Positions 32,501 to 55,173 of a stretch of DNA of 64,000 bases are shown piece by piece; position 1 is the first letter of the stretch, and each line of letters starts with the position of its first letter. The notes under the pieces are model-generated. The model saw only the letters and a list, made by a program, of their open reading frames with translations. It was not told where the DNA came from and ran no database searches. The stretch is from Antedon mediterranea (Eukaryota > Animalia > Echinodermata): contig NC_092672.1 in NCBI RefSeq assembly GCF_964355755.1, positions 9,300,001 to 9,364,000 of the forward strand. Reading direction: 5' to 3'. The translations under genes were made by a program, and so were the position numbers.

Positions 32501-35373
32501 TGAAAATATAATAAATTAATATGAAATCATGATTATTATTAAAAGATATTATTCAAAATTAAAGTCATTTTTACTTTAATAAATTAATGTCATATCAGCC
32601 TAATTTTCTTTATTGGTTGATCACTTCTGATTTTTCTGTCCAAATAATTTGAATTACACATAGCGCAGGGATGGATATAATAATATAAAAATAGTTGAAA
32701 TTATTATAGAGGTCTAGGTCTAAATAAATGGTATCTCTCCAGGGAATTGGAGGTGGGGACAGCCTATATACAGTTACAGTATGCCTAGGCCTATACATTT
32801 ACTTCCAAATTTGCAGTCTATGTTGTGGAAATTATATAAAGTTTGATCAGAGCCAATTATGACATGGATTCTTCCTTTTAATCAATTATAATAAGTTATA
32901 GGCCTAATTATTGTTAGCCTTAGGCTATGTTCAAATTGCGCAAAAATAGTGTGTAAATTGTAAATACAAAAAAAAAGCATTATTTATATTACTAGATGGC
33001 ACGCTCGCTTCGCTCGCGTACCATCTAGGTCGTGCCCACAGATGGTTCTCGAATACATAATAATTTCAGCGTTAAAAAACTGGCAATTTCAAATGTACGT
33101 ACCGCAGGACAATAATACATGTCGTTTACAGGAACGATTAAATAGACACTGTGATTTATGTACTCAACTAAAATTAGCACCCTATTACTTCCGAAAGAGA
33201 AACTTGTCACAAAATAAGACCAATTGTTTAAGTCAAATTTAAACAAACTTAATTTGTGTTTTGTATGTAACATTAGGGTTGAGGGATGGGGAAGAGGATG
33301 GGTGCAAAGAGGAACAATGTTAAAATATATTCTTTATCCATTTAGTAACGAAATATTAATTGCTTTCATGTTTTACAAATAATATACCACTAAACACAGT
33401 AAAACATTGCGATGTAATACTTTGTTGAAACTATCACCGTCCTAGTCGATTGAAATAGTACAGCACATGTAACGATACATCACTACGACGTGTATATGTT
33501 TATAATATAATGTAAAACAATTTGTGAAAACCACCTCTATTCGGGGAAAATCATAAATTCGATTTAATCGTCAATAAATAAATATTAAATTATCTAAACT
33601 CAACTTAATTAGTAGGCCTTATGGTTTTCAATTGTTTCTTAGAGCCAATTCATACTTAAGTTGGTTCCTACCCTACCCACCAAAGTTGTTCTGCGTTTAG
33701 GGCAAGTGATGTACCGTAGGCCTATTCTCTACTGGTTTTACAACGCTACTCATGCCAGTGAGGGAAAGGTGATGATGTGGGTGGTTTAACTGCAATAATA
33801 AAGATTTGTACATAATATACGGCGAGTGAAACCGCTAGCTCATTATTCGTTTAAAAAAAAATTATATCCAACCTCTGCAGCACAGATTGAAAACAAAAAT
33901 GGATCGAATTTCGAGTATACACTACTGTACTTGCCTTTACGACGCCTGAGGGAATAGACACTTGTGAAACAGAGATTGGAATGTTCCATTCATCGCAAAT
34001 CAATACATTTGTATAATCGTATATTAAATCTATCAAAATAGTATTTTTTAAAGAAAATCGGCCTGTCTTCAACATTATGATGCTGTACTCTAACTGTTCA
34101 ACCAGTTTTCAGCTATTAAAAACAATTATCGTAGGAGGAGATAGGAAAATGCGAAGCCTCCTCGTATTTTTGTGGCGGGTATTTTTCAAGATGGACATCC
34201 ATTAGACAGTGTATACCACGATCGGAAAACACCCCTATTTGGGGCAAATCGTTGAACCTAAATTCGTTTTAATCGTCAATAACTAATTATCTAACTCAAT
34301 TTAATTAGTAAACAGGGTTACATCAGGCGGTTAAAATCAGTACCGAAAGTACGAACCAACTTTATATACCATCGAGTGAAAATTCTAGAAGTAAGGCGCG
34401 ATTTACCTAATTTTGCCCTTACGTAAATTTATATTAGATTATTAGTTAGGCCTAGGCTATGCCTACACGGATATATAAAAAATGAGCTGGTATCGCGTAG
34501 GTTGAAGAAATTGTAATTGTGGCTCTGATAACTAATTTTAAAATCATATTAAATTAACATTTTCGAAACTATAAATCAGGGATAATCTTTTTAGAACTTT
34601 CAAACAAGGGACTATTTTTTTAATGATTTTTAAAAAGCACATCACTCCATTAAAACCTGTAAAATACAAATTAAAACACATATTATTTATATAATAGGAT
34701 AAACATTTAGCGCGACCAAAGTAACAATGCAATCGATATCAAACGCAACCGATATGATTACAACCGTGGGCGACTTTGCGATGGGGCGACTTTGCGTTGG
34801 GGCGACTTTGAGATGGGGCGAATTTGCGATGGGGCGACTTTGTAATGGGGCGACTTTGAGATGGGGCGACTGTGCCGGGGCGACTTTGTTTTGGGGCGAC
34901 TTTGCGATGGGGCGACTTTGTATTGGGCGACTTTGTATGGGGCGACTTTGCGATGGGGCGACTTGACTGGATCCCCATCAATAGGGCGGTACTGCTTTAC
35001 AATTACGAGGCTTGGAAAATTAAAAAAAACTATATTATAGCATATTGAGCTAGGCCTATTACCATATATATGGACCATAGAAAGGTTACTCGCGACTCGG
35101 TGGTGGATCAAAGTCTCGCTCGGTCGGCTAGCCAGCCAAGGCCTATTTATAGCCTAGCTAGGCTAGGCCCTAGTAGTAGGCTAGCCTACGCGACGCTGGT
35201 CTGTCACCTCTTGCGGGCTTGTTGTGAGAAAGTATGTACACAAAACAACATAATTCGTGAAGTTATGATTTATTTAATATTGTGAGATCAAAATGCTTAC
35301 CTCTGGACACTGTTGGCACTGACAAAATTCGATTGATACATCGAAAAAGATTTGTTCCGACACAATTCGCCAT
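29536..35373 (-). CDS. NDUFB5: NADH dehydrogenase (ubiquinone) 1 beta subcomplex subunit 5 (SGDH), complete, 167 aa
   Basis: Exons 35301-35373 ([24 protein letters not shown], transit-peptide-like), 32411-32499, 32003-32069 ([24 protein letters not shown] helix), 31713-31774 ([21 protein letters not shown]), 30202-30308 ([10 protein letters not shown]..), 29536-29641 (..[10 protein letters not shown]). Total 504 nt in frame; IPEGYVPxHWEYY-HPISR and RGDG are NDUFB5 signatures. Confidence 0.93.
30487..31160 (-). mobile_element. Non-autonomous Helentron/HINE-like element
   Basis: Minus strand starts tttacctccgccaaggaggta and ends ggcggaggtatgcactctcggagtggctttctagtt (subTIR CCTCCGCC/GGCGGAGG plus hairpin). 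Confidence 0.62.
32992..34438 (-). mobile_element. Non-autonomous Helitron, ~1.45 kb, in NDUFB5 intron 1
   Basis: Minus strand reads a|TCTAATATAAATTTACG ... ctagatggtacgcgagcgaagcgagcgtgccatCTAG|t: 5' TC, 3' CTAG, GC-rich subterminal hairpin, A|T insertion site. The 5' end is less certain than the 3' end. Confidence 0.6.
34766..34964. repeat. GC-rich ~16-bp tandem repeat (GGGGCGACTTTGCGAT), ~13 copies
   Basis: Directly visible; the core GGGCGACTTT is nearly invariant and the spacer varies. Confidence 0.9.
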
Positions 35374-35483
35374 GTTGATTTCGGACTAGGCCTAGGATAG
35401 TTTTTTGTGTTTTGTGTGACGGGAGGCCGCGTATTCGACTAGTCTATCCTGGTAAACTACTGTTGTAGTGTACGTGTATGTAC

Positions 35484-35662
35484 GGGTCAGTCTAATTACC
35501 GAAAACAACCGAAAACAACCGAAAACAACCGAAAACAACCGAAAATAACCGAAAACAACCGAAAACAACCGGAAACAACCCTAAACAACCGAAAACAAAC
35601 CGAAAACAAACTAAAACAAATCTAATTACCGAAAACAAATTTTTTGTTATGTCGCCCTCTAT
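35484..35662 (+). repeat. Left TIR with subterminal (GAAAACAACC)n decamer array
   Basis: ggtcagtctaattacc, ~10 gaaaacaacc units, a second tctaattaccgaaaacaaat, then atgtcgccctctat. Confidence 0.9.
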
Positions 35663-38389
35663 ATTAATGATATATTGAAGTAGATAGCACTGCGTTATTA
35701 CACGTGAGCCTTGGTTTGGTTGTCAGGATCTGACGAGTATTCGGCACCAAAATCAGGGGCGGATCCAGGATTTTGAAATAGGGAGATGTGGGGGGGGGGG
35801 GGGAGCAAAGGTAAAGTTTTCCCCTATGACATGTTCATTTCAAACTGAGAAGCAAAAAGCAAAGCTAAATACGTCAGAGGTGTTTTTTTGTTTTATAGTA
35901 GGCCTATACCCCCAAGTACCCAACAAATAATCCACTGAAAATTAATTAAATAGTCTATTATTTATTAAACTTTGTTATTCGGTGGCCATATAACAGCTAG
36001 AAGGCCTACTAAGAAATTTGTAATGCCTGAGATGATCATTGTGGGTGGGTGGGTAAGTTTAGTTCTGATAAAATGATAAGAAGTATTGGAACCATGGTGG
36101 GGCCTGTGACGAAGCTAATTTACTCCCATGACACCCCTAGCTAGATGGCCGGAAATGGGTACTCTCGCGCGTAAAATTCATGAAAAATGGAACCTCATAA
36201 CTCATATCATTTGACGTTATTTTAATGTTGATTCTTGAATTTATTTGTTCACTAAACGAATAACTGTAATTTATTTGAATGCAAATAGAGAGAAAATGAT
36301 GCCTATGTGCTCACGCATGAATTTGTTCAAAGTACTTGTTTCATTAAAAAATCAATTTGAAAGAAAGAGTATAGCTAGCCTTCTGGTGTAATGCCCAATT
36401 CACCACTAGACTAGACAAGTATTGTAATACAAATTAAAATCAAGGTTAAAATAAAAAAGAAAAATATATAAACATTTATTAAATAAGTTAAATTCTTAAT
36501 TCCAGCAGTGTGCGTTTTAGAGAGGATTCATTTTAAGTCTTTTGCAGCGACAGCTTAATTTTGATTAAGTTGTTTAACAATTAAACGTAATGTTGTTTCC
36601 CCTGATTAATGAGTTAATGAATGTTTTTCTCCGTTGAAATATATATATATATATAATAGTCTGACAAAAATGATGACAGGAAGTGAAAACACAAACATGT
36701 TTCATTAACTTGTAAATCTTTATTAACCTTAGGCCTAATCATATTGAGAGAACATGAGAACACAACTCAAGTCTGTAACATCTTTTTAGTACTAAATTTC
36801 ATTTTGTTTTCGAGGTACAAACTCGATTCAAGATATCAGATGTATTATCAACATCTAGCCATGTTTGTTTAACTACAACAAACTAAATTTAAATAACATA
36901 GTGTAGTAAATAAATAACATTTTTCATGTTTTAAATAATACATGAGAACACAACTGAAAATCTGTAACATAATTCCTTTTTTATTTTTTTATTTTTTATT
37001 TTATTAAAATAAAAACCAACAGCGATAATTACCGCCACTAACAGGTTTGATACAAACAAAGCCAGGACTGTTTAAAGCACCTTGATTGGTCCTAACATTG
37101 GTCAAGGGCTTATCTCGTCTCTTGACCAGAGGAAAGGCATTAAATATAATGTTTTTGAGGTATACAAACTTGATTCAAGATATCAAATGTATTATCAACA
37201 TCTACCTAAATTTAATTTGTAAAAAAAAACACACAAAACATACTGAAATCTAATGTTTTTTTAGGTATAGGTTGAAACTCAATAAAATATCAATTTGTGA
37301 ATTTTTTTTTGAAAAAGAACAAACTTAATACACATGTTTGTTGAAGGCAAAGTGATTTATATTCTATGTGGAGAAAAAATACAAATTATCGAACAAAAGT
37401 TTAAAAGAAAAAAGAAATTTTATAACTTAATGCTAATTGCAAAACTGAATATTTACAACTGCTAAGTTGTCAATCTAAATCGGATACGATTGCATTGCTT
37501 TTAAAAATTGTTAGACAGAGAACGTATGTTTTTAGGAAGTAGTGTTATACAAACCAGGGAGTTGACTCCCTGTACAAACCATGGAGGACCTCCATGTACA
37601 AACCAATATAAACATATTTAAAATTGCAATAATAATCTGTAAATGCTATCTAGTAAATGCGTTATTAAATAATAAAAATTTAACACTGTGACAAATACTG
37701 GAGTAAATACATAAGTATATTTAAAATGCGACTTAACTTTAACAATAATTAATATAAAAAGATAGATTTAATAAGTGCAAACAGAATTAATAACACGAGA
37801 AACTAAGGTAGGCCTACCTTTAATAATAAACGTTTCATTGTTAAAGTAATAGTAAAACGTACGAGATGTGGAATTATTAAATGTGCGACATAAAACACAA
37901 CTGAGAACATTTAATCAAATTACTAGCTTTTGACACATTGATGGCGTGGATAATGGGGTTCTTCGACAAAATTTAGGGAAACCGATTGAATAAGCTTAAT
38001 GCACTTTTTATTTTTTTTTTTTGGTGTAAAATGGTTCAATAGATATCTCGGAACCTCTTCAATATGAAAACTACAATACAATTACATCACGACGTGTTAA
38101 ATAGAGTAAAAATTAGTTTGTGTAATTGTCGCCCTAATTAGAGGGGTTGGGTTGCATTTATTCAATTTATTCGAATAAATACGGTACTATTTTTTTCACA
38201 TTCAAATCTTTGTATTATACAAGTATATACTGATTTAATATAAATGATATTAAGTTAAAAACATATACAAAACAATATTATTATAAAAAGAGTGTAATTA
38301 TTGTAGATTATGAGTTTCAAATAAGTGTGAATATAAAATAGCCTAAGTAAAATCTTCACCATTAATTCTTTCAAGTCTTGATACAACTC

Positions 38390-40269
38390 TTATTTCTTAC
38401 TGAATGATGTGGTTTTTGCAACTCTGGTTCTTTTTTTTTGTCCTGGTTTTTTAGCACATTGTGGTGTTGCAGGAATAATTAATTTCCCGTCTTTAGATGT
38501 TGTTGTTTTTGCAACTGTTTTGTTCAGTGATATTTTCAAAAATCGTAAAACATATTTGTTTTTTTCATCTTCAGATTTCCCTATCCAAACAGAATTTGGC
38601 ACTGTATATTTCTTTAATCTAGGGATAACGTAAAAATTGCCTTGTCCGTGAATTGCACGCCGGGCGTCTGCATATTGTAATTTCGCAATTTTGTGTAGAA
38701 TTTGTACTAAATCTGGAAGCCTTTGTGGTTTCCAGTTAATGGATAGTTTTAGAATGTGATTTATGCTTTCGCAGTTGTTGTTTGTCCAACGGTCCGGAAT
38801 CACTCGGTCGGTAATATTGGGTCTGAAAACCTTTTCTTTTAAGGTTGGGCACAGTTTATCTCTAAAATAATTTCCAAATAGTGGAACTTGTTTTTGGAAA
38901 TCTATTTCCAATTGTAGTGAACGTTTGTCAAATTGTGAAATGTTTGTACTCCCAAGTAATCCGGACGGCGAAAAGATTTTGTTTAGTATTATTTGTCGGT
39001 ACTTATTATTTGCTCCTTGCTTTTCAAGCAAGTAACGAGATGCATTTTGCTTGATATGCCTTGTGCACAATATGTGTCGCGAATTGGGGAAAGAAAAGTT
39101 TAAAGCTTTCAAAATTGCCTTTTCTTCGTCGGAACCTATGACCATATTACAACTCATACCAACTTCGGAATTGTTTATGTCACTGTCAAGCTGACAACGC
39201 AAATGTGTAAAGAAATCAAGATACGTGCTGTACCGACCATCCCAGTGTAATAGCATCGGGCCGACAAAAATGGGATGATCATTTGCTTCTTTTTTAAGCA
39301 ATAGAGTGTTTTTAAAAACAGTAACCGTTAAATAGCAAGCCCCCAAGTTAAAAGTCCTATCGATCCCTAGTATACTTTGAGAAATATTGCCACAACAAAA
39401 CCTTCGTAAGTCATTAATTTGATTGTTTGTGTACAGAATTACACAAGGAGGCTGATTAGGTACAGCAAAGACTTTTTTTACAAATTCATGTTTTGTTAAT
39501 TCGGTTATTAAATTTTGTATATCATCGGCAACATTAGACCTACTACCTGTGGTGAGTTTTTTTGATCGGTTATATTTCAAATTTCTCAGTTGTTTCATAT
39601 CTCTGGGTGCGCTTTCGGGGTTAGAAAAAACCATATCTGCGTAAGTATCCCTGGGTTTGGAATGGACAAGTCTACATTCAGCATCACGTAGAACTTTCGG
39701 ATGAGTACGTACGTATTCTGTGTGTGTATGTCTGTCATTACCATGTGACGAAATGGTAAAAGGAAAATTGCCAATGTATTCAACTACTGCTTTAGGCCTA
39801 TTGAAGTTGTTCATTTTTTCGTTTTCGTTTTCTATCCACGACACTCGTTTTTTGTACCCTTTGTCTCGTTTTAATTTACAATAACACCTATGCAAAGTTA
39901 TAATATTAGTCGGTTGTGGTACGAGCGGGACCCAAGTACCGTTTTTTTTAATGCAAAATCTATCACACTTAAAGACAATGGTGATAAGCCTTCCAGCTAC
40001 TCTTGTGAACTGTGTCTTCGGAGTACTACTACTTGACGAGTCCCATACACCACAATCATCAGGAAAGAAGCTACGACCACCTCCAAAACGTTGTTGTACA
40101 TTGCCTTCATTGTTGACAACAAATAACATATTTTCTTTAACACCCTGCGGAATGTCTGGGAATGTTGCATTTTCTGATGTTTTCATGAGGATTTGGTATA
40201 GTTCAGACACCTGAACAAATTTTTTGTTTAACAACCGCTTTGTGAACCTTTTGCACGACATTCGGTCAC
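38390..40269 (-). CDS. MULE/Mutator-family DDE transposase (last coding exon, ~626 codons)
   Basis: Uninterrupted ORF with ILGIDRTFNLG (D1), VIGSDEEKAI (D2), HILCTRHIKQN (CxxH) and WTNNNCESINHILK (E). Acceptor cgttttAG|GTGACCGA at 40270/40269 is in the ORF frame at phase 1. Confidence 0.9.
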
Positions 40270-40689
40270 CTAAAACGAAGCATATTGAAAATTTCAAAAT
40301 ATTTAATAACAGTAATAGGCATGTTTCCTTTTTTGCGGGCACTGTTTATAAACTTTATTTCAATAGTTACTTTTGAGCAAATGTATGATGCATGCATTTT
40401 CTATTTTATATGTAATATTTTCACAATAGAATATTAGTATATTAGTAACATGTAATTGTACCTTAAGAACACGCTAAAACGTAGTCGATACATCTAAAGA
40501 TAGTTTTATTTGGAAAATAAAAGATATCAGCCGTCACAATTTCCCACAAAAATAAACAGAATTATTTTAATTTTAATTGCATATTGGAAATGATAATGAA
40601 TTTTGTTTTCGAATATTGTGTCACACAAAGATAATGTAGATTTTATTAATATAGTGTTTCAATTAGGTTGTGTAAATTAAATAACGAAC

Positions 40690-43600
40690 CTTGCTTTTCC
40701 AGATCAGAACTAAATGAATTGTTTATGTGACTGTATCGTGTTTCGGAATTACTTAGAGCAACTTCAGACTCGGACGAAGAAAATATAATTGGTGAATTAT
40801 CGCCGACGTCTTCAATCTTGACAAATGCAGTGTGTCCCCTCTGTTTTTTTCCTTTTTAAAAATATATAAATATTTGTCAAACCATAAAGCAATACATAAC
40901 TTACAAATGTATTCCCCTATATTTTCATGCTATTGCTGGGAGCTTTTCTTTTGCTTTTTAACGGTAAATAACATACAGTACATGATAAACAATCAGACAT
41001 TGAATCGTGTTCTATATCATGATACATTTTATCCGCATTTTATGCAGGTTGACCGCAGTACTATTGCAAATAACAGTACTTACAATGATAGGTGTATTTT
41101 AAACACTACCCTCTTATTAATAATGACACGATTTACTGTATTTGGTGATTTGAGTTTTCTATTTGAATAATGAAACTCGAATCTTGTTATTGAAATATCA
41201 TAAATTTAAGAAACTCAAATATCTGAGTTTTTTAGATCTAGGAAACTTAGATATATTTAAAACTTGTGTTTTCTAACACAGATCTTGTAATGCGAAGATC
41301 AAAACGAACAAAACACTTACTTTCATGTTGCATAGTTTTTGTGGTTTTCGAGTCGGGCGTTGTCATCGACGTGCTTTTTTCCTTTATGATTTCGCTGTGG
41401 GGGTTACAAATTGGGGATTGGAAAATCACACTATCGCCGGAAGGCCTTCCTGTTATAGGCGTATGCAATACATCATTACGATTAGGTAGTAACTTTTCAT
41501 TGGTGTCTGTATGATCACTGCTGTCGTTGTTGGAGTCAGAAAATTGATGTGATAATGAAATCAAATCAAAATCTATATCGGAAGATTGGCTAAAAAAAGA
41601 GGTAGCTGGAATGCCCTTAAAATTAGCCATCGTGGCATTTGTGTCTGTCTTTTTGCTGTTGTCGCTGTTTGGTGTGGAGCGTGGAGATATGGAAATCATA
41701 TCACGTTTATGGAAAGGTTGTCTATCAACAGAAGTGGAGGGAACGTCTGTAGGATCAACCTGTGGTGTTGAGTCAACGGAATCAGATGATATGGTTGCGA
41801 TTCGTTGCTTCTTCTTCGGTCGCCTTGTTTTCTTTTTCCGCACTATAAAATGTAGATTCATATCGATAAGTAAAAACACACAATGTTATATGATCTAGAT
41901 ACATTCAGATATCTCAGTTTCCTATAGACACCTACACTTATTGAATAAAACATTACTTTGTTAAAAAAAAAACAACAGATCAAAACACTACCTCCTGCAT
42001 GATTCGTTACTTTCGTGGTTTTTAAGTCGGGCGTTGTCATCGACATGGGTACGTTGTCGCTATTTGGTGTGAACAGTGGAGATATGGAAATCATATCCCG
42101 TTTATGGAAAGGTTGTGTATCAACAGAAGTGGAGGGAAAGTCTGTAGGATCAACTTCAGACTCGGACGAAGAAAATATAAATGGTGAATTATCGCCGACA
42201 TCTTCAATCTTGAAAAATACAGTGTGTCGCCTCTGGTGTTTTCCTTTTTGAAAATATATAAAATATTTGTCAAACCATAATGCAATGCATAACTATACAT
42301 GTATTCCCCTATATTTTCAGGCTATTGCTGGGAGCTTTTCCTTTGCTTTTTAAAGGTAAATAACATACATGATAAACAATCAGACATTGAATCGTGTTCT
42401 ATATCATGATATACATTTTAGCCGCATTTTATGCAGGTTGACCGCAGTACTATTTTTGGCAAATAACAATGAGTACTTACAATGATAGGTGTATTTTAAA
42501 CACTACCCTCTTATTAACAATGACACGACTTACTGTATTATGTGATTTGATTTTTATATTTGAAGCTTGAAACTCGGATCTTGTTATTTAAATTTCATAA
42601 ATATAGGAAACTCAAATATCTGAGTTTTTTAGATCTAGAAAACTTAGATATATCTAAAATTTGTGTTTTCTAACACAGATCTATTCTTGTAATGCGAAGA
42701 TCAAAACGAACAAAACACTTACCTTCATGTTGCATAGTTTTTGTGGTTTTCAAGTCGGGCGTTGTCATCGACGTGCTTCTTTCCTTTATGATTTCGCTGT
42801 GGGGGTTACAAATTGGGGATTGGAAAATCACACTATCAGAAGGCTTTCCTGTTATAGGCATATGCAATACATCATTACGATTAGGTAGTAACTTTTCATT
42901 GGTGTCTGCATGATCACTGCTGTCGTTGTTGGGGTCAGAAAATTGATGATCAAAATCTATATTGGAAGATTGGTTAAAAAAAGAGGTAGCTGGAATGCCC
43001 TCAAAATTAGCCATCGTGGCATTAGTGTCTGTCTTTTTGCCGTTGTCGCTGTTTGATGTGGAGAGTGGAGATATGGAAATCACATCACATTTATGGAAAG
43101 GTTGTCTATCAACAGAAGTGGAGAGAAAGTCTGAAGGATCAAGTGTTGAGTCAACGGAATCAGAAGATATGGTTACTGTGGTTGCGATTCGTTGCTTCTT
43201 CTTCGGTCGCCTTGTTTTCTTTTTCCGCACTATAAAAATGTAGATTCATATCGATAAGTACAAACACACAATTGTATTTGATGTAGATACAATCAGATAT
43301 CTCAGTTTTCTATAGACACCTACACTTATTAAATAAAACATGTCTTTGTTAAAAAAAAAAAAAACAGAACAAAACACTACCTCCTGCATGTTGCGTAGCT
43401 GTTGTAGTTTTCAAGTCGGGCGTTGTCATCGACAAGGGTACGTTGTCGCTGTTTGGTGTGGAGATTGGAGATATGGAAAACATATCACGTTTATGGAAAG
43501 GTTGTCTATCAACAGAAGTGGAGGGAAAGTCTGTAGGATCAAGTGTTGAGTCAACGGAATCAGACGATATGGTTGCTATGGTTGCGATTCGTTGCTTCTT

Positions 43601-45396
43601 CTTCGGTCGCCTTGTTTTCTTTTTTCGTACTATAAAAATGTAGATTCATATCGATAAGTACAAACACACAATGTTATTTGATCTAGATACAATCAGATAT
43701 CTCAGTTTCCTATAGACACCTACACTTATTGAATAAAACATTTATTTTTTACAAAAAAAAAAACAGAACAAAACACTACCTCCTGCATGTTGCGTATCTT
43801 TTGTGGTTTTCAAGTCGGGCGTTGTCATCGACATGGGTACGTTGTCGCTGTTGGGTGTGGACAGTGGAGATATGGAAATCATATCCCGTTTATGGAAAGG
43901 TTGTGTATCAACAGAAGTGGAGGGAAAGTCTGTAGGATCAACTTCAGACTCGGACGAAGAAAATATAAATGGTGAATTATCACCGACATCTTCAATCTTG
44001 AAAAATACAGTGTGTCGCCTCTGCTGTTTTCCTTTTTGAAAATATATAAAATATTTGTCAAACCATAATGCAATACATAACTACAAATGTATTCCCCTAT
44101 ATTTTCAGGCTATTGCTGGGAGCTTTTCTTTTGCCTTTTAAAGGTAAATAACATACATGATAAACAATCAGACATTGAACAGTGTTCTATATCATGTTAT
44201 ACATTTTAGGCGCATTTTATGCAGGTTGACCGCAGTACTATATTGCAAATAACAGTACTTACAATGATAGGTGTATTTTAAACACTACCCTCTTATTAAT
44301 AATGACACGATTTACTGTATTATGTGATTTGATTTTTATATTTGAAGATTGAAACTCGGATCTTGTTATTTAAATTTCATAATTCTAGGAAACTCAAATA
44401 TCTGAGTTTTTTAGATCTAGAAAACTTAGATATATCTAAAATTTGTGTTTTCTAACACAGATCTTGTAATGCGAAGATCAAAACGAACAAAACACTTACC
44501 TTCATGTTGCATAGTTTTTATGGTGCTTTTTTCCTTTATGATTTCGCTGTGGGGGTTACAAATTGGGGATTGGAAAATCACACTATCGGAAGGCTTTCCT
44601 GTTATAGGCATATGCAATACATCATTATGATTAGGTAGTAACTTTTCATTGGTGTCTGCATGATCATTGCTGTTCTTGTTGGGGTCAGAAAATGGGTGTG
44701 ATAATGAAATCAGATCAGAATCTATATTGGAAGATTGGTTAAAAAAAGAGGTAGCTGGATAGCCCTCTAAATTAGCCATCGTGGCATTTGTGTCTGTCTT
44801 TTTGCCGTTGTCGCTGTTTGATGTGGAGAGTGGAGATATGGAAATCATATCACGTTTATGGAAAGGTTGTCTATCAACAGAAGTGGAGGGAAAGTCTGTA
44901 GGATCAAGTGTTGAGTCAACGGAATCAGATGATATGGTTACTGTGGTTGCGATTCGTTGCTTCTTCTTCGGTCGCCTTGTTTTCTTTTTTCGCACTATAA
45001 AAATGTAGATTCATATCGATAAGTACAAACACACAATTGTATTTGATGTAGATACAATCAGATATCTCAGTTTTCTATAGACGCCTACACTTATTAAATA
45101 AAACATGTCTTTGTTAAAAAAAAAATAACAGAACAAAACACTACCTCTTGCATGTTGCGTATCTGTTGTGGTTTTCAAGTCGGGCGTTGTCATCGACATG
45201 GGTACGTTGTCGCTGTTGGGCGTGGACAGTGGAGATAGGGAAATCATATCCCGTTTATGGCAAGGTTGTGTATCAACAGAAGTGGAGGGAAAGTCTGTAG
45301 GATCAACCTGTGGTGTTGAGTCAACGGAATCAGATGATATGGGTACTATAGTTGCGATTCGTTCTTTCATTTTCGGTCGCCTTTTCTTTTTTTGAA
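40690..45396 (-). CDS. Eight tandemly amplified phase-1/phase-1 exons encoding Ser/Thr/Asp/Pro-rich low-complexity repeats with basic NLS-like heads
   Basis: Exons 45145-45396 (252 nt), 44500-44994 (495), 43780-44031 (252), 43381-43629 (249), 42723-43229 (507), 41992-42243 (252), 41321-41842 (522), 40690-40851 (162). All are multiples of 3, AG..GT bounded and open. Three acceptors (..aaaaAG) are weak. Confidence 0.7.
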
Positions 45397-45606
45397 CTAT
45401 AAAAATTTAGATTTATCTCGGTCAATAATATAAACACACCTCTGAGATAACTTCGTTACAATAAAAAATAACAATGAACCAATCTATTGCGTACACTACG
45501 TACGGATAAGTTTTGTGTATTCTTATCCTAAAATTTTATTTTTTTTAAATTTGTACAAATAAATAAGAAACCATTTGTCTAAATTAGTAGAGTAGGCCTA
45601 ATTTAC

Positions 45607-46612
45607 CTTTCCTTTTGATTACTTTCTTGTGACCAATGTCGTCATACGAAGTAGATGACAAGCAAGATGACAATATTTCGGGTAAACACACTCTCTCATC
45701 TATTAAAGAACTGTCCAATAACGGGACAAAGTGGTTAGGAATCCACGTACCCTTTGAAGAAGGTAATAGTGTACTAGTCCACATAATAAAAATCGGATGT
45801 CTGTCAGCTGTTTCTTCGCAAGGATAAAAACTTCTATTCAATATGCGATGTGCATTGTCAGTAACGCCATTATAAGGAGGATACACAGAAATAATTTCTT
45901 GCCCTATAACACTAGACAACGCCTGTATCTGCCAAGCTGAAGAATAACCGCTTTCACGACTACAATCTGAACAAGCGAGATTGTAATCAGGACTGGTTAA
46001 AGCAATTTTTGAATGTTTGTGCAGTTCCTTGTAGAATGTTTCTTTTTCTACCATATCAACAAATGTTCTTACGCGAAGTTCAGTAGCAATGTTTTCATTG
46101 CCAGTCAAAGCAACAGCTACGGCATTAAACAAGCAGCTACCGTCACCAGCGACAGATACAGGGATTAAACGCCCACCTCCACATTTGTTCATTATACTTG
46201 TAGAAACAGCATCGATGACATACTGTTGAGATATCGTAAACGGGGGTTTACTAAAGCGATGATTACGTAGAAATAAACGTTCACTTTGCGCTATGTCAAG
46301 TATATTGTAATTGTTTTTGGTAGCTGAATCAATACGCTCTAATGAGGCCAAAAAATCAAAACTGCCATTAGGGCTACAGCATTCGGAACAAGTGAAATGC
46401 AAAGGAGAGTTACCTAAGCTATGCAAGTTTGCTTTAGTTAAGTTTTCGCACAATATGTGGAACCAGCGTAAGCAATAATCACAAAATATACTGTCATTGT
46501 TGCACGCAAACTTACAAACACCACAAAAGTATTTCCCCGTTTTTTTCTTGTCACAATCAAAACAAGTTAAACAAGGTCTAGTTTTTTTGTGCTGCCTTTT
46601 TTGTCTGTACAT
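45607..46612 (-). CDS. PHD finger plus vertnin-like OTU cysteine protease domain (first coding exon of the transposon gene)
   Basis: C4HC3 pattern CGVC..CDYC..WFHILC..CSEC. OTU motifs VAGDGSCLFNAVAVAL, ELRVR, WQIQALSSVIGQEIISVYP, IFIMWT, WIPNHFVPLL. Acceptor tttcAG|AATATG at 46616; donor AAAG|GTAAAT at 45606. Confidence 0.85.
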
Positions 46613-48059
46613 ATTCTGAAAGTAAAATAAGAACAATTGGTTTGAAAGCAATTGTAAGGTCCTATCATTAGCAAGTACACATTATATTTATCAGATTATA
46701 TTTACACTTTTGCAGCATTTACTATTTATAGAATAAAAATGTTATCTGCACTAAATAAGCCAGTCGGTAAATCTTTATGGAATTCATTTAAAAGCAATAT
46801 GTTATATAACATTGAATGTGAAACATATAACAATAAAGAAAAAAGTATAGAAAAATGGGTAGCTTTAAGAAATAAGATTATGATAATATAATTTCTAATT
46901 TGATACGATTAACAGAAAAAGAATTACAGTGATACGGGTTACTGGTGGTACTGAGCTATTATTGTTTATTTTTATCATGTATATAAATATATTGTATAAT
47001 CCGGGTTGTAAAATGAAAACAAACAAATGAAAATGTGTGAACTATTTTAAAACGGGATAGATGATAATGATGATCCTGTCAAGTGTATAACAAAATATAA
47101 GAAAATTAATGAAAAAAGGAGTAATACAGAATTCATATATGTAAAAATGTTACTTATGAACTGTAACGACATTTACAAGTTAAATAATACGATTTTATGT
47201 AATATGAGATAATATGAATGTGAATAAAAGTGGTGTTTGCGCCACAAAAGAGAAAAAGAAAAAAAAACAAGTACACAAATCAAATTGCTTAACTTAGGCT
47301 TTATTGTTTTTCAATTCTTTATATCATTATTAGTCAAAATGATTAGTTTGATGATTTTTGGGTAAAAATTAAACTGCGAATGCGTATACGCGAAAAATTG
47401 CGATTCGCACAAATAAATAACTTGAATACCGTTGTAGATATTTAAATTAAAGCATTCTTTATACACTGAATAATGATTAACTATTAAAAAATGAACTGTA
47501 AATAATTATGAATGACTTACCACTGTGTGCTCGTCAGAACCGAACGGTTAAGTAAAAATAGACTGAACTGTTGTACAACTGAACTGAACTGTACAAAAAT
47601 AAAGATTTAGATGGATTTTCTCCAGTGAGAATTCAAGAATAAAGGTATGATGTGTTTTTTTATCGCTTTAAATAGTGGAAAGAAACTTCAGCAGAACCAC
47701 GCTTTTTACATAGTTGCATGAAGGTCTTTTTTATTGGCTTATTTTCTGAAGCCTAACACCGTCAAAGTTCTAGACCAATCGCAATGCACATTTTGCCAAA
47801 GCTGCTCTCATATTTGGGACCATCTTTAAGAAATCGGAAACCAACAGGCTGCTTTGATAATAACCGCACACGGAACCGGTGCTATCGCCATATCAAACAC
47901 TATTTTGACAAAACCGTCCGACTCCGATAAAATGCCAGTTATTCCACTGACATATTGCAAAATAGGTTACCGTCAAGAATAAACATGTAAGGAACTCCTT
48001 TGTATGATCTTGATAAAATTACTAAGGTTCTTCGAACACAGAGACCAGAGACTAAGAGA

Positions 48060-49105
48060 TAGGTCGAAACGGGTGTCTCAAAAACAGAGACCAGAGACCC
48101 GAGACCCAGGGTCTCTGTTTTCGAGAAAATCTGGAAAACAGAGACCCCCACTAAAACGTCTAAATAATACGTTATATAGGGGGTCTCTGTTTTCCAGAAA
48201 AACTCGAAAACAGATACCCCCATTAAAACGTCTCAATATTAAGTCAATATTACGTTACATAGGGGGTCTCTGTTTTCCAGAAAAACTCGAAAACAGATAC
48301 CCCCATTAAAACTTCTTAATATTAAGTCAATATTACGTTATATAGGGGGTCTCAGTTTTCGAGTTTTTCTAGAAAACAGAGACCTCCACTAAAACGTTTC
48401 AATATTAAGTCAATATTACGTTATATAGGGGTCTCTGTTTTCGAGAAAAACTCGAAAACAGAGACCCCCACTAAAACGTCTCAATATTAGGTCAATATTA
48501 CGTTATATAGGGGGTCCCCACTAAAACGTCTCAAAATCACAGAATGACGTATCAGTAATAAACGGTAACTGATATGCCGATATCAAAGAACATGCCGCAA
48601 CGATAAGAAGATTGATGAATTCTTGAACGCGTGTGAAGAGACTGTCATTTTGGAATACAAGGTCGACGTCCTAGAAGTTAAGTAAGATGTATAAATGCAT
48701 GTTAGAAGCTAAAAAGCGGGAGATTATTTCAAAAACTGACACTAGTTTCGTAACCTTTATTAACAAGCATAAAAGATAATAACGTACAATGCAATAACAA
48801 AATGATATGAGGTCAGACTTTGAGGCAGACTGGAGGATGAAGACAAATATATTGTGTTGGGCGAACCTTTAAAAAGAAATGAATTAAAAAAATAAAAATA
48901 AATTGATAAATAAATAAACATAAATTCACGGTTTTTGCGATAAAAGTTGGGTTTTAATAATTTATGACCAAGCTCGTTGGTGGGTATTTGCAACACTCTC
49001 AATAAACAGGGATTATATTAGGGGGTCTCGGGAAATCTCAAAAAAAGAGACCCCCAATATAATGAGACGTTTTAGTGGGGGTCTCTGTTTTCGAGTTTTT
49101 CTCCA
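48060..49105. repeat. Array of ~83-bp units built from inverted GAGACCCC/GGGGTCTC motifs (main block 48060-48535, outlier 49020-49105)
   Basis: aaaacagagacccccactaaaacgtctcaatattaagtcaatattacgttatatagggggtctctgttttc repeated ~5 times; each unit is self-complementary at its ends. Confidence 0.8.
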
Positions 49106-50170
49106 TTAGTATTTGTTTTATTATAAGGTTGTTGACATTATAATGTGTCTATTGTATATTTTAATGGTATTATACATATGCCTACATCATTATAATATAG
49201 CTCATCCCCACCCTCCTACCTCCTCCATTAGGCCTATTCCCTGCCCCACCGTTCGATAGAGATTAAATATAAATATATGAAAATTCACTAAAATTAGTTG
49301 TGAAATTAGGTTCTTTTTTTCGTAAAAAAATTAGATTTATGAATAACTTATACAAATTCTCAAGTGTCAACAATAAATCGTCTGTGTTTTTAAACAGTGA
49401 ATAGTAGCCGATAAATTCACGTGCATCCTTCACAATAACAATACAAAATATAACAATATACATACAGAAAATTATAAAGGCAAAAAACAACTAACAACCC
49501 CTAAAATATCCTCTACCCTCCGCAACACCCCAACCAATTTTAATCGATACATAGGGACATAGGGTAGATCATTACTGTACAAAAATGAATAAAGAAATAT
49601 AGTGAAATTGTATTAAATAAAATCAACAGAAAACACAGCTTATTAATAATACAAACGATTTGTTTTGTAATTCAATTCTCCATTCATCTATCATTATAGA
49701 GTTAAGTTTCTTAAAATTTTAGACATTTAAAAGGAGAGAGGAGAAAATATATTTGGATTCACAATTACACTTCCATCTTTAGTATTTCATACAAAGAGCG
49801 TTATGGATCTCAGTTAATTGGAGACCAACCAGAGGTGCTTTTTTTAAGGTATAACGCGCCATTTGGAGCTTGATACGCTTTAGCTTATCTTTATCTATTC
49901 TATACTTAAAGAGCACCAAATAAATGAACAACCATAGTTGATAGAACTATCGATCTCCACAGAGTATCTCCATAATATACTAGTTCAAGTTACTGATACC
50001 GTATCTATAAGAAACTGAAATACACAGCATGCTTTATACGTGTGTGATTGCATTTGATTGTGGGAATAGACATTTCTCAAATGTTGTGGTCTTCATGACG
50101 TGCTCTTTTGAAACATCATATTCATACTGGTTCAATAATTTTGTTAACGCTAGTTTTTGCAGGTTATTTA

Positions 50171-50262
50171 TCCTTTTGATACGATAGATCACGACATCCT
50201 GATCAGTCGTATGCAGAAGGAATTTGGCATTACTGGCTTTTCTTTAAATTGGGTAGATAGAA
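50171..50262 (+). pseudogene. Non-LTR retrotransposon reverse-transcriptase fragment (second copy at ~52275-52370)
   Basis: Translates FDTIDHDILISRMQKEFGITGFSLNW, similar to the CR1/L2 RT motif AFDTVDHxILLxRL..GIxG..LxW. IGVFLDLSK is also readable at ~52408-52434. Confidence 0.7.
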
Positions 50263-51185
50263 TATTGATGGATCCATTCTTCTTCCTTGGTAGTTTTAAT
50301 ATTTGTCTCAGTCGAGCCTTGTATTTCAGGACCTGGTACCCAAGCTATAGTTTTCCAGAGGTTCTCCCATGTTGAAAATCTCAGACTGACTTATTTTCAT
50401 TACTATCTATGGGTGCTGCCTCATCGATAGTTAGTGTCATCAACTACAGAAACGCTGGCCCTTAATTATAGCATCTAAAAAAGGGTGTAATTCGCTCTCG
50501 CATACTTTTTGTGTTGTAGTTTGTAACATATTTCATGCCTTCTAAGTTCATCTAACCAATATTCCATTCGGATTGGATGGTGCGAGGTATTGCATCATCC
50601 CAGCCAAGTTCTTGACGGCATCAATTCTGTAAAATAAGTTAGTAAATTAATTCGATGAGTTGCATAGGCCTGTCAGTTATGGCCTTAAGACAGATTTCCG
50701 AGGAACTACGTAGAATTGTTTGCCGTGATTAATTACAATTTTTGTATGAAACGTATATACAGGTTCGAATCCCGCCAGAGACATTTTTTCATACAACTAA
50801 AAAATACGGAACTTTCGCCAATGACGCGTTTATGAGATCATGTTCCGATGAGCACTGTAATTTGACAGTATTTATTTATATATAATTTACACAGTGCTTC
50901 GCAATACAATTGTATAAATATAAAAACACAACAGGCATAGAAATAAATTCCAAACCGCCCGGTGATACACTGAAAATTATTTAATTAATTTTTGAAATGA
51001 TAAAGATGAGGAAATCTGTGAGAATGAGAAAAAGTCGACCCAACCGAGACTCGAACTCGGACCGTCTGCTTGATATGCAGTTGCCCTAACCATTAGACCA
51101 TTTCATGGTATTGTTCTTTAACTCGATTGGATAACGACCCTTTAACATTCTCGGCGTGGTACGGTTGGAACACAACTAGTCCTCA

Positions 51186-51304
<119 letters not shown>

Positions 51305-51696
51305 CATCAAAGTAAAAAAAAATGTATAATACAGCGCAACACATAATCCTTGATGTACATAAAATAAAGGTAACAACAATATCGCCAATGCATTTAATGT
51401 AAAAATATTATATCGTCATTCACCTCTGGAAAGTAACCTGGCATGGTTATGACGAATTTAATGAACATGCAATCGTAAAAGTTTGTAAACAAATCAACGT
51501 ATAGTTAGAAATAAATACCCAAATAGATATTATGTTTTTCTCCTGTCATTTGTTTAAATCGGGCTATATACAAAATATTTGTACTGTGTATTTGACCTCC
51601 ATTTTTAAATGTAGCAATATATCCGTTTTGCCCATTTTTATCCTAATACATTTTAAATAAAAATAAAAGTTTTAAAACACAGAATCGATTGAATTT

Positions 51697-51990
51697 ATAT
51701 TTATACTGGGTAACCTCTTCAGTCAAAGACTGGTCTCCCAGAGGACCCAGTTGGTGATCAGTGGCTGTAATGTACTAATACACCGGGGTAACCCCCTACT
51801 CGTCTCGTACTAGGTTCTTTAAAGTGCACACGAGCGAGATGTGTACACTGGACCTACGGTTTATAGTCCTTATCCGAGAAGACTCGTTCTAACCACCAGA
51901 ACCACGGAGTGAGTGAGCCTCGAACCCCTGCCGATGTTATGGCTACGTAATTACTGTTCCACTGTCGTAACCGCTCGGCCACTCACTCCC
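51697..51990 (-). mobile_element. tRNA-headed SINE with a Deu/Nin-like central domain
   Basis: Minus strand: head GGAGTGAGTGGCCGAGCGGTTA..GGTTCGAGGCTCACTCACTCC, then TCGGATAAGGACTATAAACCGTAGGTCC..GCACTTTAAAGAACC..GAGTAGGGGGTTACCCCGGTGT, resembling the DeuSINE core. A second near-identical copy is at 59062-59660. Confidence 0.72.
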
Positions 51991-53305
51991 TACGAATGTC
52001 TACTAATGTTGATTTGCGAAATTATTGGTTTAGGTTCCCGACCAAATCAACATTAAACTCAGATTTTCGCCCAGTTTCTAACCTTCATACGTTAGGTAAG
52101 ATTATTCAGTATCTAACCATTTCCTGTCTACTTTATGAAACATATCAGTCGGTATAAATAATATAATAAATCTCATAGTACGGAAACTGCTCTATCGCGT
52201 TAAAAGTGATATATTATGTTGATGAAACATGATAAAGGGTGATATATTATGCTAGTTTTGGCAGTTTTTTTTTTATCCTTTTGATACGATAGATCACGAC
52301 ATCCTGATCAGTCGTATGCAGAATGAATTTGGCATTACTGGCTTTTCTTTATTAATTGGGTAGATAGAAATAAAATTACTTCAGCATTACATAAAAGGGA
52401 TTTTTTTATTGGCGTCTTTCTTGATTTGTCAAAGTCAGTCAAATACCACAATACTTCTATCACAATTAATTGATTGGTTTAAAAGTTATTTATTATTTAC
52501 CTCCGCCAAGGAGGTATCTCTAATCGATCGCGTGTGTCTGTTTATTTGATTGTCTGTCTGTTTGTTAGCAGAATTACTCAAAAAAGTTATTGCAAGAAAT
52601 ATGTGGCCAAGGACCACTCCATTACATTTGGAGGCAATCCGGACTACGGTCCCAATTTTTGACCACTTTTTAGTATTATTTTCAGACCTGCTAATTTACG
52701 ATTTGCACCGAATAGAGGTGTTTTTCACAAACTGTTTTACATATAAACACAATATACACAAATAAACGTCGTAGAAGTGGTGTATTATTGTCATGCGGTA
52801 AGTACATTTGAAATCGCTGAAATTATACTATGTATTCGAGAACCATCCCTAGTTGTTAAAATTGTTATAAAATACTAAAAAATATTTTAGAAGTGATTAT
52901 ATCGAATTACAGTATTTAAAAATGCTTATATATTAAAATGCTTATATATTATGCGTGGTGCGTGTTAGTGTTAGGCTACTATTATGTAGTTTCTTTTATA
53001 TTATATGTAGGAATACTTTAACTTTCCAACTTGTATCTTTAAAACCTTATTTCATGTTTTTTTCTATGATAATGTTTTATTTTTCAAAGGGTCTTACGAC
53101 TACAGACAATTCCTTGTCTCCGTAAGATTCATGTAACATATATATTAAATATCTAACATATTGTAGATTCTGTAAGTAAATGCACGGTGTTATCATTGAG
53201 TTTGTACGATATTGAGTTAAATTTTGTGCACACTTCCATTTCGTATGGTCTCTATCTCCTTGGCTTTGCGCGCGCGGTCTTGTTGGCTTTAGAAACACCT
53301 ATCAA

Positions 53306-53524
53306 TAGAGGGCGACATTTAAAAAATATACTGTAGAAATTTGTTTGGCGTGCGAGGTCAATATAGTAGCTGCATCAAATTTGTTTTCGGTATTTAGATA
53401 TTGTTATTTTGTTTTCGGTTTGTTTTCGGTTGTTTTCGGTTGTTTATGGTTGTTTTCAGTTGTTTATGGTTGTTTTCGGTTGTTTTCGGTTGTTTTCGGT
53501 TGTTTTCGGTAATTAGACTGACCG
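53306..53524 (-). repeat. Right TIR with subterminal (GGTTGTTTTC)n array
   Basis: Reverse complement of the left TIR, including atagagggcgacat, with ~50-60 bp of extra sequence. Confidence 0.9.
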
Positions 53525-53595
53525 GTATGTACAGTGCATTTTTTTCATCCACAAAAATACACCAGTCGAACTTTGCATGCTTACGTCAAACTTAA

Positions 53596-54303
53596 AGCTC
53601 AGGTACAGGCATGAATTTTACATATAATATTTGGTTAATTGTACATAAATCAAATATTTGTCGAAAAAACATGAATTTCCCTTAATATAGTCAAATACAA
53701 AATTTGGCAAAATTCTTCCATAAAAACCAGGAAGACTTTTTTTAAGTAGTTAGGTAGTTAACCTAATGTAATAACATGTCTGGTGACTCCCTAGACGGTG
53801 AAAAAAGATGGTGGATATACGGTGGATACTTTTTGCTATAGCATGAAAATAAAAATCTGAAGTTGAATAAAAATATCAGAAATGTAATATTCAAGTTATA
53901 TTATCTATATTTAGTCATCTGATAACATTTTTTACCACACCATTTATTTTTCATAGCTTTTTAAAATGCCTCTCTATTTACAAAATGTGTGTACAAAAGA
54001 ATAGAGATTTTACTGTGTAATTTGAACTATCCCCCCCCCCCCCACTGATAAGAAAGGGCTTATTTTCAACAAGCTCGTGTAACACAAATAAAATCGATCA
54101 AATATAGATCGATAATTATTAGAATGTCTGATCAATAGACATTTTTTGCCCGCACCTTGCCTTTAAAGCTCAGGTACAGGCATGAATTTTAAATACTAGA
54201 TGGTAGATGGTAAATCTAAAAAATTATGAAACATAGGGGAAACTATAGATAAAAAATTATTGGAATGTATGATCAATAGAAATTTTTTGCCCGCACCTGG
54301 CCT
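53596..54303. mobile_element. Two head-to-tail TTAA-flanked non-autonomous elements (Kolobok-like)
   Basis: TTAA|AGCTCAGGTACAGGC..GCCCGCACCTTGCCT|TTAA|AGCTCAGGTACAGGC..GCCCGCACCTGGCCT|TTAA, with imperfect TIRs starting AG. Confidence 0.6.
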
Positions 54304-55173
54304 TTAAGGATTTGAAGCATGGTATTTTGGTAGGGGTGAGAGAACATTAACATGCGTATATTACAACAAAAAAAAGCCTGCCACATGCATCATTTGTTGT
54401 TTTATTTTCAAGAACTAGTTCACTTGTTAATCTCCGTTAATCCAGATATCTGTTAGCTGCATCTCATGCAACATGAAGAAAAACATGTCTATAAATAGAC
54501 TATTTCTGTAGATACACATGCTTCAAATAATAATGACTTTCCTTTAACTTTGCTGTATTATGACCCATATCATAATAATTATTCTGACACAGTAGTACAC
54601 ATGTATAATAACATTATGTATACATTTTGAATTCCTTGAAAGTCTGTATACATATATAAAGTTAAAGTTCAGTTGCCTACAGTATACTGAATATCATAAC
54701 CCATCATTAATATAGAAACCCACCATATATTTTTATTTTTCCTTACATTTTTTTATAACCAGTTCAGTTGAGTGCAGTTACTACATATGAAATAACTCAT
54801 AATATTTTTCTAAAAGTATTAATAATAATACCATTAAAGGTTGTTTCATTTACATAATTGAAAGACTATAGGCCTATAGGCCTGAAAAAAAAATGACAAT
54901 TCAGAAAACTAAATATACAGTACACATTTACCATTTAAGGTCAATTTTCCACAGAAAAAAACCTGGACAGTGTACAGGTTAACACCACCACTGCCAATTT
55001 AATAAAATAATATTTAAAACATACTACAGTACTAGCAATGCCTAATTAATAATAATAAATTGTGAGAGGTTCAATTAAAGAAACAAATATTTAAAATTAC
55101 ATGAAACTTGCTCACAACGGTGAATTATGATGGGCATTATAAAGCATGGGATTACAAAGGCATTATCAATATT

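What the first reader, a model, noticed from the sequence alone, without database searches (positions are those of the whole stretch)
38390..46612. The ORFs splice into one 1858-aa PHD-OTU-repeat-transposase fusion protein
Seen: the PHD/OTU exon ends at a phase-1 donor (45607), eight symmetric phase-1 exons follow, and the transposase exon opens at a phase-1 acceptor (40269). The lengths 1006+252+495+252+249+507+252+522+162+1880 sum to 5577 nt = 1858 codons + stop, with no internal stop found on reading. A likely 5' non-coding exon ends at a GTAAGT donor at 47520. Inference: the protease and reader domains are tethered to the transposase through an ~900-aa disordered linker. The ORF track hides this completely.
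Basis: partly seen in the sequence, partly recalled or inferred. Interest (0 to 1): 0.85.

Follow-up and report, generated by a model that had tools for sequence, protein, structure and literature searches.

The report
Mutator transposon with exon-duplicated protease tether
This is a young 18-kb animal jumping gene whose cutting enzyme is likely spliced to a chromatin-reading finger and a predicted ubiquitin-removing protease, as in its many relatives; what is unusual is that repeated copying of exons has stretched the predicted spacer between them to about 940 residues, three times longer than in any relative fetched.

Summary
All ten exons, GT-AG ends, phase-1 junctions and the 5577-nt, 1858-aa frame check out. 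The gene lies in an 18,041-bp Foldback-type Mutator (MULE) transposon (35484-53524) with an 8-bp target duplication, an intact DDE triad and an intact OTU Cys/His.

The fusion itself is a family trait. 81 of 255 fetched proteins carry OTU ahead of this transposase in one chain, and 31 of 80 genomic loci have both in one unbroken reading frame. An OTU-bearing MULE from Hydra is in print, and this scan found the family three times before on other DNA.

The variant here is the spacer: 940 aa against 38-313 aa (median 102), built by tandem duplication of exon-plus-intron units. All 7 indels between exon copies keep the frame; 0 of 10 between intron copies do (p=5e-5), so the repeats are probably translated.

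No splice junction was seen in RNA. All 256 skip patterns stay in frame, so fusion is very likely, but the exact 1858-aa form is less sure. Three acceptors are weak and compete with frameshifting ones. What PHD-OTU does for the transposon is untested. New variant of a known kind.

The parts
35476..35483 (.). Left 8-bp target-site duplication
   Evidence: Identical to 53525-53532, directly abutting both TIR ends
35484..35642 (+). Terminal inverted repeat at the gene's 3' side: about 15-bp terminal motif starting GGGTCAG, then about 12 tandem 10-mers (Foldback-type)
   Evidence: (86% over 168 nt to the other arm)
38390..40269 (-). Exon 10: MULE transposase (aa 1234-1858): GCM/WRKY-like N-terminal domain, DDE D1536/D1613/E1733, C1634xxH1637, conserved W before the E
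38012..38171 (-). Three AATAAA candidates for the poly(A) signal
   Evidence: inferred, not shown in RNA
40690..40851 (-). Exon 9 (162 nt, B-type linker exon; weak AAG acceptor, competing frameshifting CAG at +11)
41321..41842 (-). Exon 8 (522 nt, long A-type repeat exon, starts with basic RKKKTRRPKKK patch)
41992..42243 (-). Exon 7 (252 nt, B/A chimeric repeat exon; weak AAG acceptor)
42723..43229 (-). Exon 6 (507 nt, long A-type repeat exon)
43381..43629 (-). Exon 5 (249 nt, short A-type repeat exon)
43780..44031 (-). Exon 4 (252 nt, B/A chimeric repeat exon; weak AAG acceptor)
44500..44994 (-). Exon 3 (495 nt, long A-type repeat exon)
45145..45396 (-). Exon 2 (252 nt, short A-type repeat exon)
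45607..46612 (-). Exon 1: PHD finger (aa about 20-85, Pygopus-like) and OTU protease (aa 131-300; D134, C160, H294; fold closest to VCPIP1, OTUD3, Cezanne, TRABID, A20)
47521..47780 (-). Likely promoter (two CCAAT boxes near 47777 and 47735, TATA-like box 47674-47667) and 5' non-coding exon ending at 47521
   Evidence: read from sequence; inferred, not shown in RNA
53377..53524 (-). Terminal inverted repeat at the gene's 5' side, starting CGGTCAG, with about 10 tandem 10-mers
   Evidence: a contig at flank-level depth starts at 53525 in run X2
53525..53532 (.). Right 8-bp target-site duplication

Best explanation
This is a complete, recently copied Foldback-type Mutator transposon whose single gene likely splices a PHD finger and a predicted OTU deubiquitinase to the transposase through a long, predicted-disordered spacer that likely grew by tandem exon duplication. 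Shown: the element ends, the target duplication, the exon frame, the catalytic residues and the same domain order in relatives. Inferred: the transposase binds the 10-bp subterminal repeats and cuts and pastes as Muta1 does. The PHD finger likely docks the protein on methylated histone H3. The OTU domain likely strips ubiquitin in cis, from the transposase itself (sparing it from the proteasome) or from nearby chromatin or repair proteins. The spacer is likely a tolerated, length-flexible tether under selection for frame rather than sequence. It likely expanded because unequal crossing-over between symmetric phase-1 exons cannot break the frame.
For: Element: TIR arms and exact 8-bp TSD. The same C/G-GGTC terminal motif with short tandem repeats and 8-9-bp TSDs bounds relatives L045, L053 and L027 (3 of 34 loci scanned). 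Contig depth inside is about 4 times the flank outside (X2 130-163 vs 31; X4 875-1205 vs 232), with 0 differences over a 2084-nt contig.

Fusion: 37 of 101 transposase hits carry OTU upstream in one chain; 48 of the 150 best PHD-OTU hits carry transposase parts; 31 of 80 loci have OTU and transposase in one stop-free frame. Exon 1 + exon 10 alone give 961 aa, the family's usual size (P0001 969, P0070 964).

Catalysis: D303/D380/E500 of exon 10 are kept in 47 of 48 aligned proteins and the CxxH His in 48 of 48; OTU C160 in 42 of 47, H294 in 43 of 47, D134 in 44 of 47. Folds: ISCth4 transposase Z 12.9; VCPIP1 and OTUD3 OTU Z 14.6.

Linker: 7 of 7 vs 0 of 10 frame-keeping indels; 1.4-kb and 2-kb duplication units at 90-92% identity; 12 of 81 relatives also have repeats in this spacer.
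Against: No splice junction has been observed. Amino-acid constraint on the linker is weak or absent: pN/pS is 0.29-2.04 over 10 exon pairs, and only exon 4 vs 7 is borderline (p 0.02-0.07). Exons 4, 7 and 9 use AAG acceptors with a frameshifting CAG 8-11 nt downstream, and the donors of exons 2, 4, 5, 7 (GTAGTG) and 9 (GTTCGT) are off-consensus. Depth of contigs is not a true copy number, and X2/X4/X5 are one sample that may be the assembly's source. No activity, substrate or histone binding was tested. The protein collections are rich in unspliced ORF calls, so other long spliced linkers would be missed.
Confidence: 0.78

Rival explanations
1. Fusion yes, but mostly short: transcripts skip many or all repeat exons (weak sites), giving products from 961 aa upward, and the 1858-aa form is minor.
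For: All 256 inclusion patterns are in frame, the shortest 961 aa, equal to the family norm. Several splice sites are weak. Relatives need only 38-313 aa.
Against: Frame-keeping indels in the A-type exons (7 of 7 vs 0 of 10) imply that these exons were translated often enough for selection. Splice sites are kept in every copy.
Confidence: 0.3
2. The repeat exons are a splice switch: use of the downstream CAG acceptors or intron retention yields a transposase-less PHD-OTU protein (343 aa upward) that acts as a regulator or anti-silencing factor, while the full form is the transposase. This resembles the P-element repressor and En/Spm isoforms (recalled).
For: A frameshifting CAG sits at +11 in all three B-type exons and stops translation after 8 codons; retention of any intron gives a stop 7-81 codons downstream.
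Against: The three CAG copies descend from one ancestor, so their presence is not independent conservation. Such transcripts would likely be destroyed by nonsense-mediated decay. No RNA support.
Confidence: 0.15
3. OTU is a self-processing protease that cuts the polyprotein in the linker and frees the transposase, as suggested for Medicago MULE-OTU fusions in PMC1702500.
For: A long exposed spacer next to a papain-fold protease; the suggestion is in print.
Against: The fold matches deubiquitinases. Relatives swap OTU for a Ulp1-type SUMO protease (P0033 E=5.5e-6, P0023 weak), which points to removal of ubiquitin-like tags. The linker has no detectable similarity to any relative, so no shared cut site is evident.
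Confidence: 0.1
4. A domesticated host gene or a dead relic rather than a mobile element.
For: Many introns and a TATA/CCAAT-type promoter look host-like.
Against: Intact TIRs, exact TSD, several near-identical copies by depth, and an intact DDE.
Confidence: 0.05

Closest known systems
MuDR-6_HM (Hydra), MULE group 14 of Dupeyron et al. 2019, PMC6446971 (section 6 with Table 1 read; supplement searched)
   Same: Invertebrate MULE with one ORF and an 'Ovarian Tumour Gene' domain.
   Different: Listed as 5227 bp with no TIR, no TSD and no zinc finger; here 18 kb, Foldback TIRs, PHD and a 940-aa spliced linker.
Muta1 of Aedes aegypti, PMC5499845 (passages read)
   Same: MULE DDE with (C/D)xxH and W before E; 8-9-bp TSD; TIR = terminal motif plus subterminal tandem repeats that boost transposase binding and excision.
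   Different: 504-aa transposase in a 3.2-kb element; the passages read mention no PHD or OTU.
Tm1 / Phantom Foldback MULEs, PMC3169594 (passages read)
   Same: TIRs of short tandem repeats, asymmetric outer motifs (one begins CGGT), 8-10-bp TSD.
   Different: 496-aa FLYWCH-type transposase; no protease in the passages read.
Ginger1 transposases with OTU or Ulp1 and PHD, PMC2836005; Medicago MULE-OTU fusions, PMC1702500; Helitron OTU/VTD, PMC9741609 (passages read)
   Same: Transposase fused to an OTU or Ulp1 protease, sometimes with PHD. Helitron VTD domains are active deubiquitinases.
   Different: Different transposase families or a C-terminal position. Here PHD-OTU is N-terminal to a MULE core. 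PMC9741609 states that transposon OTU domains had not been tested for activity.
Vertnin (VRTN), inactive OTU-like protein per PMC10318531 (passages read)
   Same: One relative (P0042) is labelled 'Vertnin' by UniRef; OTU-like fold.
   Different: Vertnin lacks the catalytic site; this OTU keeps Cys/His. No direct comparison with vertebrate VRTN was run.

Membership tests
Mutator/MULE superfamily | DDE catalytic triad in an RNase H-like core | tested here: met
   D1536, D1613, E1733, each kept in 47 of 48 aligned proteins; best structural match ISCth4, E=3e-7 and Z 12.9, rmsd 4.8 over 221 aa
Mutator/MULE superfamily | (C/D)xxH motif 15-45 aa after the second D, and W before the E | tested here: met
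   C401xxH404, 21 aa after D380; W494 nearly invariant; definition from PMC5499845
Mutator/MULE superfamily | Pfam MULE / Transposase_mut match | tested here: met
   27.3 bits vs cutoff 27.6 for this protein (just under); 45 of 48 alignment members match MULE and 34 of 48 Transposase_mut at E<=0.1
Mutator/MULE superfamily | Long TIRs and 8-10-bp TSD | tested here: met
   About 150-bp TIRs, exact 8-bp TSD
Mutator/MULE superfamily | WRKY-GCM1-type DNA-binding domain ahead of the core | tested here: inconclusive
   GCM domain Z 6.6, WOPR Z 5.7; Atlas neighbours with GCM (0.94, 12% of members) and FLYWCH (0.86); CG-1 weak in 2 of 48. Consistent but middling scores
Foldback-type MULE | TIR made of a terminal motif plus subterminal tandem repeats | tested here: met
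   12.1 and 10.1 copies of a 10-mer; similar build in L016, L019, L027, L045, L053
MULE group 14 (MuDR-6_HM) | Monophyly of the DDE domain with MuDR-6_HM | not testable with these tools
   Its protein sequence was not found in the held supplements (name only)
OTU deubiquitinases | OTU fold with catalytic Cys and His | tested here: met
   Pfam OTU 24.4 vs cutoff 23.3; Z 14.6 to VCPIP1 and OTUD3; C160 aligns with the VCPIP1 and Cezanne Cys loop; H294 conserved
OTU deubiquitinases | Cleaves ubiquitin isopeptide bonds | not testable with these tools
   Needs an enzyme assay
H3K4me-reading PHD fingers | C4HC3 zinc finger | tested here: met
   Pfam PHD 24.1 vs cutoff 24; family profile matches the Pygopus PHD at E=3e-10
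H3K4me-reading PHD fingers | Aromatic cage binding methyl-lysine | tested here: inconclusive
   The Tyr before the first Cys and the Trp two before the His are present as in the Pygopus alignment; their cage role is recalled, binding untested
Active autonomous element | Expression of the spliced transposase and transposition | not testable with these tools
   No run on record as RNA holds it

The most novel reading that the evidence does not exclude
An active animal transposon family carries its own chromatin-targeted deubiquitinase, a working relative of vertnin, as a counter-defence. The PHD finger parks it on methylated nucleosomes and the OTU erases ubiquitin signals that would silence the element or destroy the transposase. 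In this lineage a cassette of symmetric exons lets splicing tune the tether from about 45 to 940 residues, or switch to a transposase-free PHD-OTU protein.
Probability: 0.18. Interest if true: 0.75.

Novelty: new variant of a known kind. Interest (0 to 1): 0.42.

Why it matters
Protease domains on transposases have been noted since 2006-2010, but PMC9741609 (2022) states that transposon OTU domains had not been tested for activity. This element is intact, young and has defined ends, so it is a ready test case: clone the cDNA, mutate C160 or the PHD, and score transposition, transposase half-life and insertion sites. It also shows tandem exon duplication lengthening a protein inside a mobile DNA element without breaking it. 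The architecture itself is common, which caps the surprise.

Tried and rejected
Expression: no RNA holder listed. Run X1 is only guessed to be RNA. Laid on the element it gave depth 2-11 over exons and introns alike, a contig crossing the 40269 acceptor unspliced, and no predicted junction among the 15 of 26 joints shown. It has depth 364-486 just downstream of the neighbouring PH-domain gene where the DNA runs have 31, so it may be RNA with a DNA background. This says nothing for or against splicing here.

No genome is held for this window, so copies and empty sites could not be counted.

A single-protein scan of metagenome contigs found nothing; the alignment scan did. No solved structure matches the transposase profile by sequence at E<=1. 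The linker matches no Pfam family (3 exons scanned) and no fetched relative. The 'longer' searches returned 5 and 3 proteins, none with a long spliced linker; weak evidence, given how the collections were built.

A conserved phase-1 linker intron was rejected: the candidate in-frame linker intron of L062 and the first donor of L007 are phase 2. A CG-1 (CAMTA) label for the N-terminal domain got only weak support (E 0.02-0.03).

No paper describing a PHD-OTU-MULE fusion or an exon-duplicated transposase linker turned up in 9 literature searches. Repbase reports and most subscription papers are outside that library. No complex prediction was run.

Full report
OBSERVATION. Rebuilding the model from the window confirms every number given: ten coding exons on the minus strand from 46612 to 38390, nine GT-AG introns of 149-479 nt, all phase 1, 5577 nt, 1858 aa and one terminal stop. 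In each internal exon only the required frame is open. Exon 1 holds a PHD finger and an OTU domain, exon 10 a MULE transposase. The 896 residues from exons 2-9 are 44% Ser/Thr/Asp/Pro and poor in order-promoting residues (0.23 vs 0.35-0.37 in the folded parts). Disorder is inferred from composition, not predicted by a dedicated tool.

ARE THE REPEAT EXONS REAL? No RNA junction could be seen. The best indirect test is indels. Between exon copies 7 of 7 internal indels are multiples of three (3, 3, 6, 6, 9, 15, 27); between intron copies 0 of 10 are (Fisher p=5e-5; terminal gaps left out, one 6-nt event may be shared). Amino-acid constraint is weak: pN/pS runs from 0.29 to 2.04 over ten pairs, as expected for a spacer selected for frame only. 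Against a single fixed product: exons 4, 7 and 9 use AAG acceptors with a frameshifting CAG 8-11 nt downstream, and all 256 inclusion patterns of exons 2-9 are in frame, the shortest giving 961 aa. So fusion is robust to how the middle is spliced; the exact 1858-aa form is the less certain part.

HOW THE LINKER AROSE. Self-comparison shows overlapping duplication units of about 1.4 kb (three copies, 90%) and 2.0 kb (92%), introns included. Exons 4 and 7 are chimeras: the 5' part matches exon 9, the 3' part exons 2 and 5. This fits unequal crossing-over between symmetric phase-1 exons (inference).

THE FUSION IS THE FAMILY NORM. Of 101 transposase relatives, 37 carry OTU upstream in one chain; most of the other 64 begin close to the transposase domain and cannot show it. 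Of the 150 best PHD-OTU relatives, 48 carry transposase parts, 26 with all three modules. Of 80 genomic loci, 31 have OTU and transposase in one stop-free frame, 8 in different frames, 32 show no OTU on the contig and 9 lack the N-terminal transposase part. Named hosts include molluscs, crustaceans, a lancelet and a tunicate. In 81 of 255 fetched proteins with both domains the spacer is 38-313 aa, median 102; here it is 940 aa. Twelve of the 81 have their own internal repeats. Because the collections are rich in unspliced ORF calls, 'longest' is only 'longest fetched'.

THE ELEMENT. Inverted arms at 35484-35642 and 53377-53524, each a short terminal motif followed by 10-12 copies of a 10-mer, enclose 18,041 bp and are flanked by an exact 8-bp duplication. 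One end starts GGGTC, the other CGGTC. The same one-base asymmetry, a similar motif, short tandem repeats and 8-9-bp duplications bound L045, L053 and L027 (3 of 34 loci scanned), and the motif also occurs in L016 and L019 (the pattern was drawn from the window and L045). The ends therefore belong to this transposase family. In DNA runs the interior lies at about four times the depth of the flank outside (X2 130-163 vs 31; X4 875-1205 vs 232), the outer parts higher and the TIR arrays far higher, and a 2084-nt contig over the transposase has no differences. Contig depth is not a copy number and these runs are one sample, but the pattern fits a few near-identical full copies plus many short derivatives.

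CATALYTIC STATE AND FOLDS. The DDE residues, the CxxH motif and the Trp before the Glu are intact and conserved. The model (pLDDT 88) matches the ISCth4 transposase best (E=3e-7; Z 12.9), then Hermes, P and RAG1. The N-terminal domain resembles GCM/WRKY-type DNA-binding domains at middling scores. The PHD-OTU model (pLDDT 86, pTM 0.82) matches VCPIP1 and OTUD3 (Z 14.6), Cezanne, TRABID and A20. C160, H294 and D134 are conserved in 42, 43 and 44 of 47 aligned proteins; an upstream Asp as third triad residue is the A20 arrangement (recalled). The PHD profile matches Pygopus best (E=3e-10).

MECHANISM. Cut-and-paste through the subterminal repeats follows from Muta1 (PMC5499845, passages). For PHD-OTU I favour a chromatin-docked deubiquitinase acting in cis on the transposase or on nearby chromatin and repair factors. 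The exchange of OTU for a Ulp1-type protease in two relatives, and the active VTD deubiquitinases of Helitrons (PMC9741609, passages), support tag removal over self-cleavage. Substrate and benefit are untested. The long spacer is most simply a tolerated expansion; a splice-switch role is possible but unsupported.

COMPARISON AND NOVELTY. An OTU-bearing MULE (MuDR-6_HM, Hydra) is tabulated in PMC6446971 (section 6 read). OTU fused to Medicago MULEs is in PMC1702500 (passage); OTU, Ulp1 and PHD on Ginger1 in PMC2836005 (passages); vertnin as an inactive OTU in PMC10318531 (passages). Three earlier notes of this scan describe the same PHD-OTU-MULE family on other genomes, seen after I had reached this reading; none of the summaries shown mentions an exon-duplicated linker. 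Nine literature searches found no description of this exact architecture or linker, but Repbase reports are not searchable here and may cover it. Verdict: real, a MULE by the tested criteria, a new variant of a known kind. Interest 0.42.

Noticed in passing
L007:4500-5520: A relative has, in the same OTU-transposase spacer, a duplicated exon end plus donor and intron start. It could form an extra symmetric small exon, a weak parallel to the window's duplications.
   Followed up: partly
P0023, P0033: Same MULE transposase with an N-terminal Ulp1-type SUMO protease in place of PHD-OTU (P0033 E=5.5e-6, P0023 weak).
   Followed up: partly
P0166; P0002-P0005: The same OTU type rides on unrelated elements: ahead of a tyrosine recombinase (P0166) and C-terminal to a different transposase-like protein followed by tandem repeats (P0002-P0005).
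   Followed up: partly
window 48109-48516 and 49020-49095: Five 83-bp tandem units, each with an internal palindrome, upstream of the promoter; high depth in DNA runs, so a repeat family of its own.
   Followed up: no
window 54400-64000, minus strand: Host gene with two PH domains; run X1 has high depth at 54452-55100, possibly its 3' UTR. The transposon sits about 0.9 kb beyond it.
   Followed up: partly
window 3280-3579, minus strand: First exon of a pyridoxal-dependent decarboxylase gene (E=4.5e-6).
   Followed up: partly
window 27565-28677: 74 perfectly identical copies of a 15-mer with all six frames open; very young satellite or assembly artefact.
   Followed up: no
window 14793-17075; 8971-9410; 34768-34964: Minisatellites of 29, 30 and 16 bp.
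   Followed up: no
window 51684-51991 vs 59051-59657; 53592-54307: A 91-95% identical interspersed repeat inside the element and in a host intron, and a very high-copy 0.7-kb repeat just outside the right TIR.
   Followed up: no
P0014, P0083: Members of this animal transposase family are deposited under bacterial metagenome bins; likely host contamination.
   Followed up: no
window exons 2-9: Repeats alternate a basic NLS-like patch with hydrophobic-then-Ser/acidic stretches that recall phospho-SUMO-interacting motifs (recalled pattern, untested).
   Followed up: no
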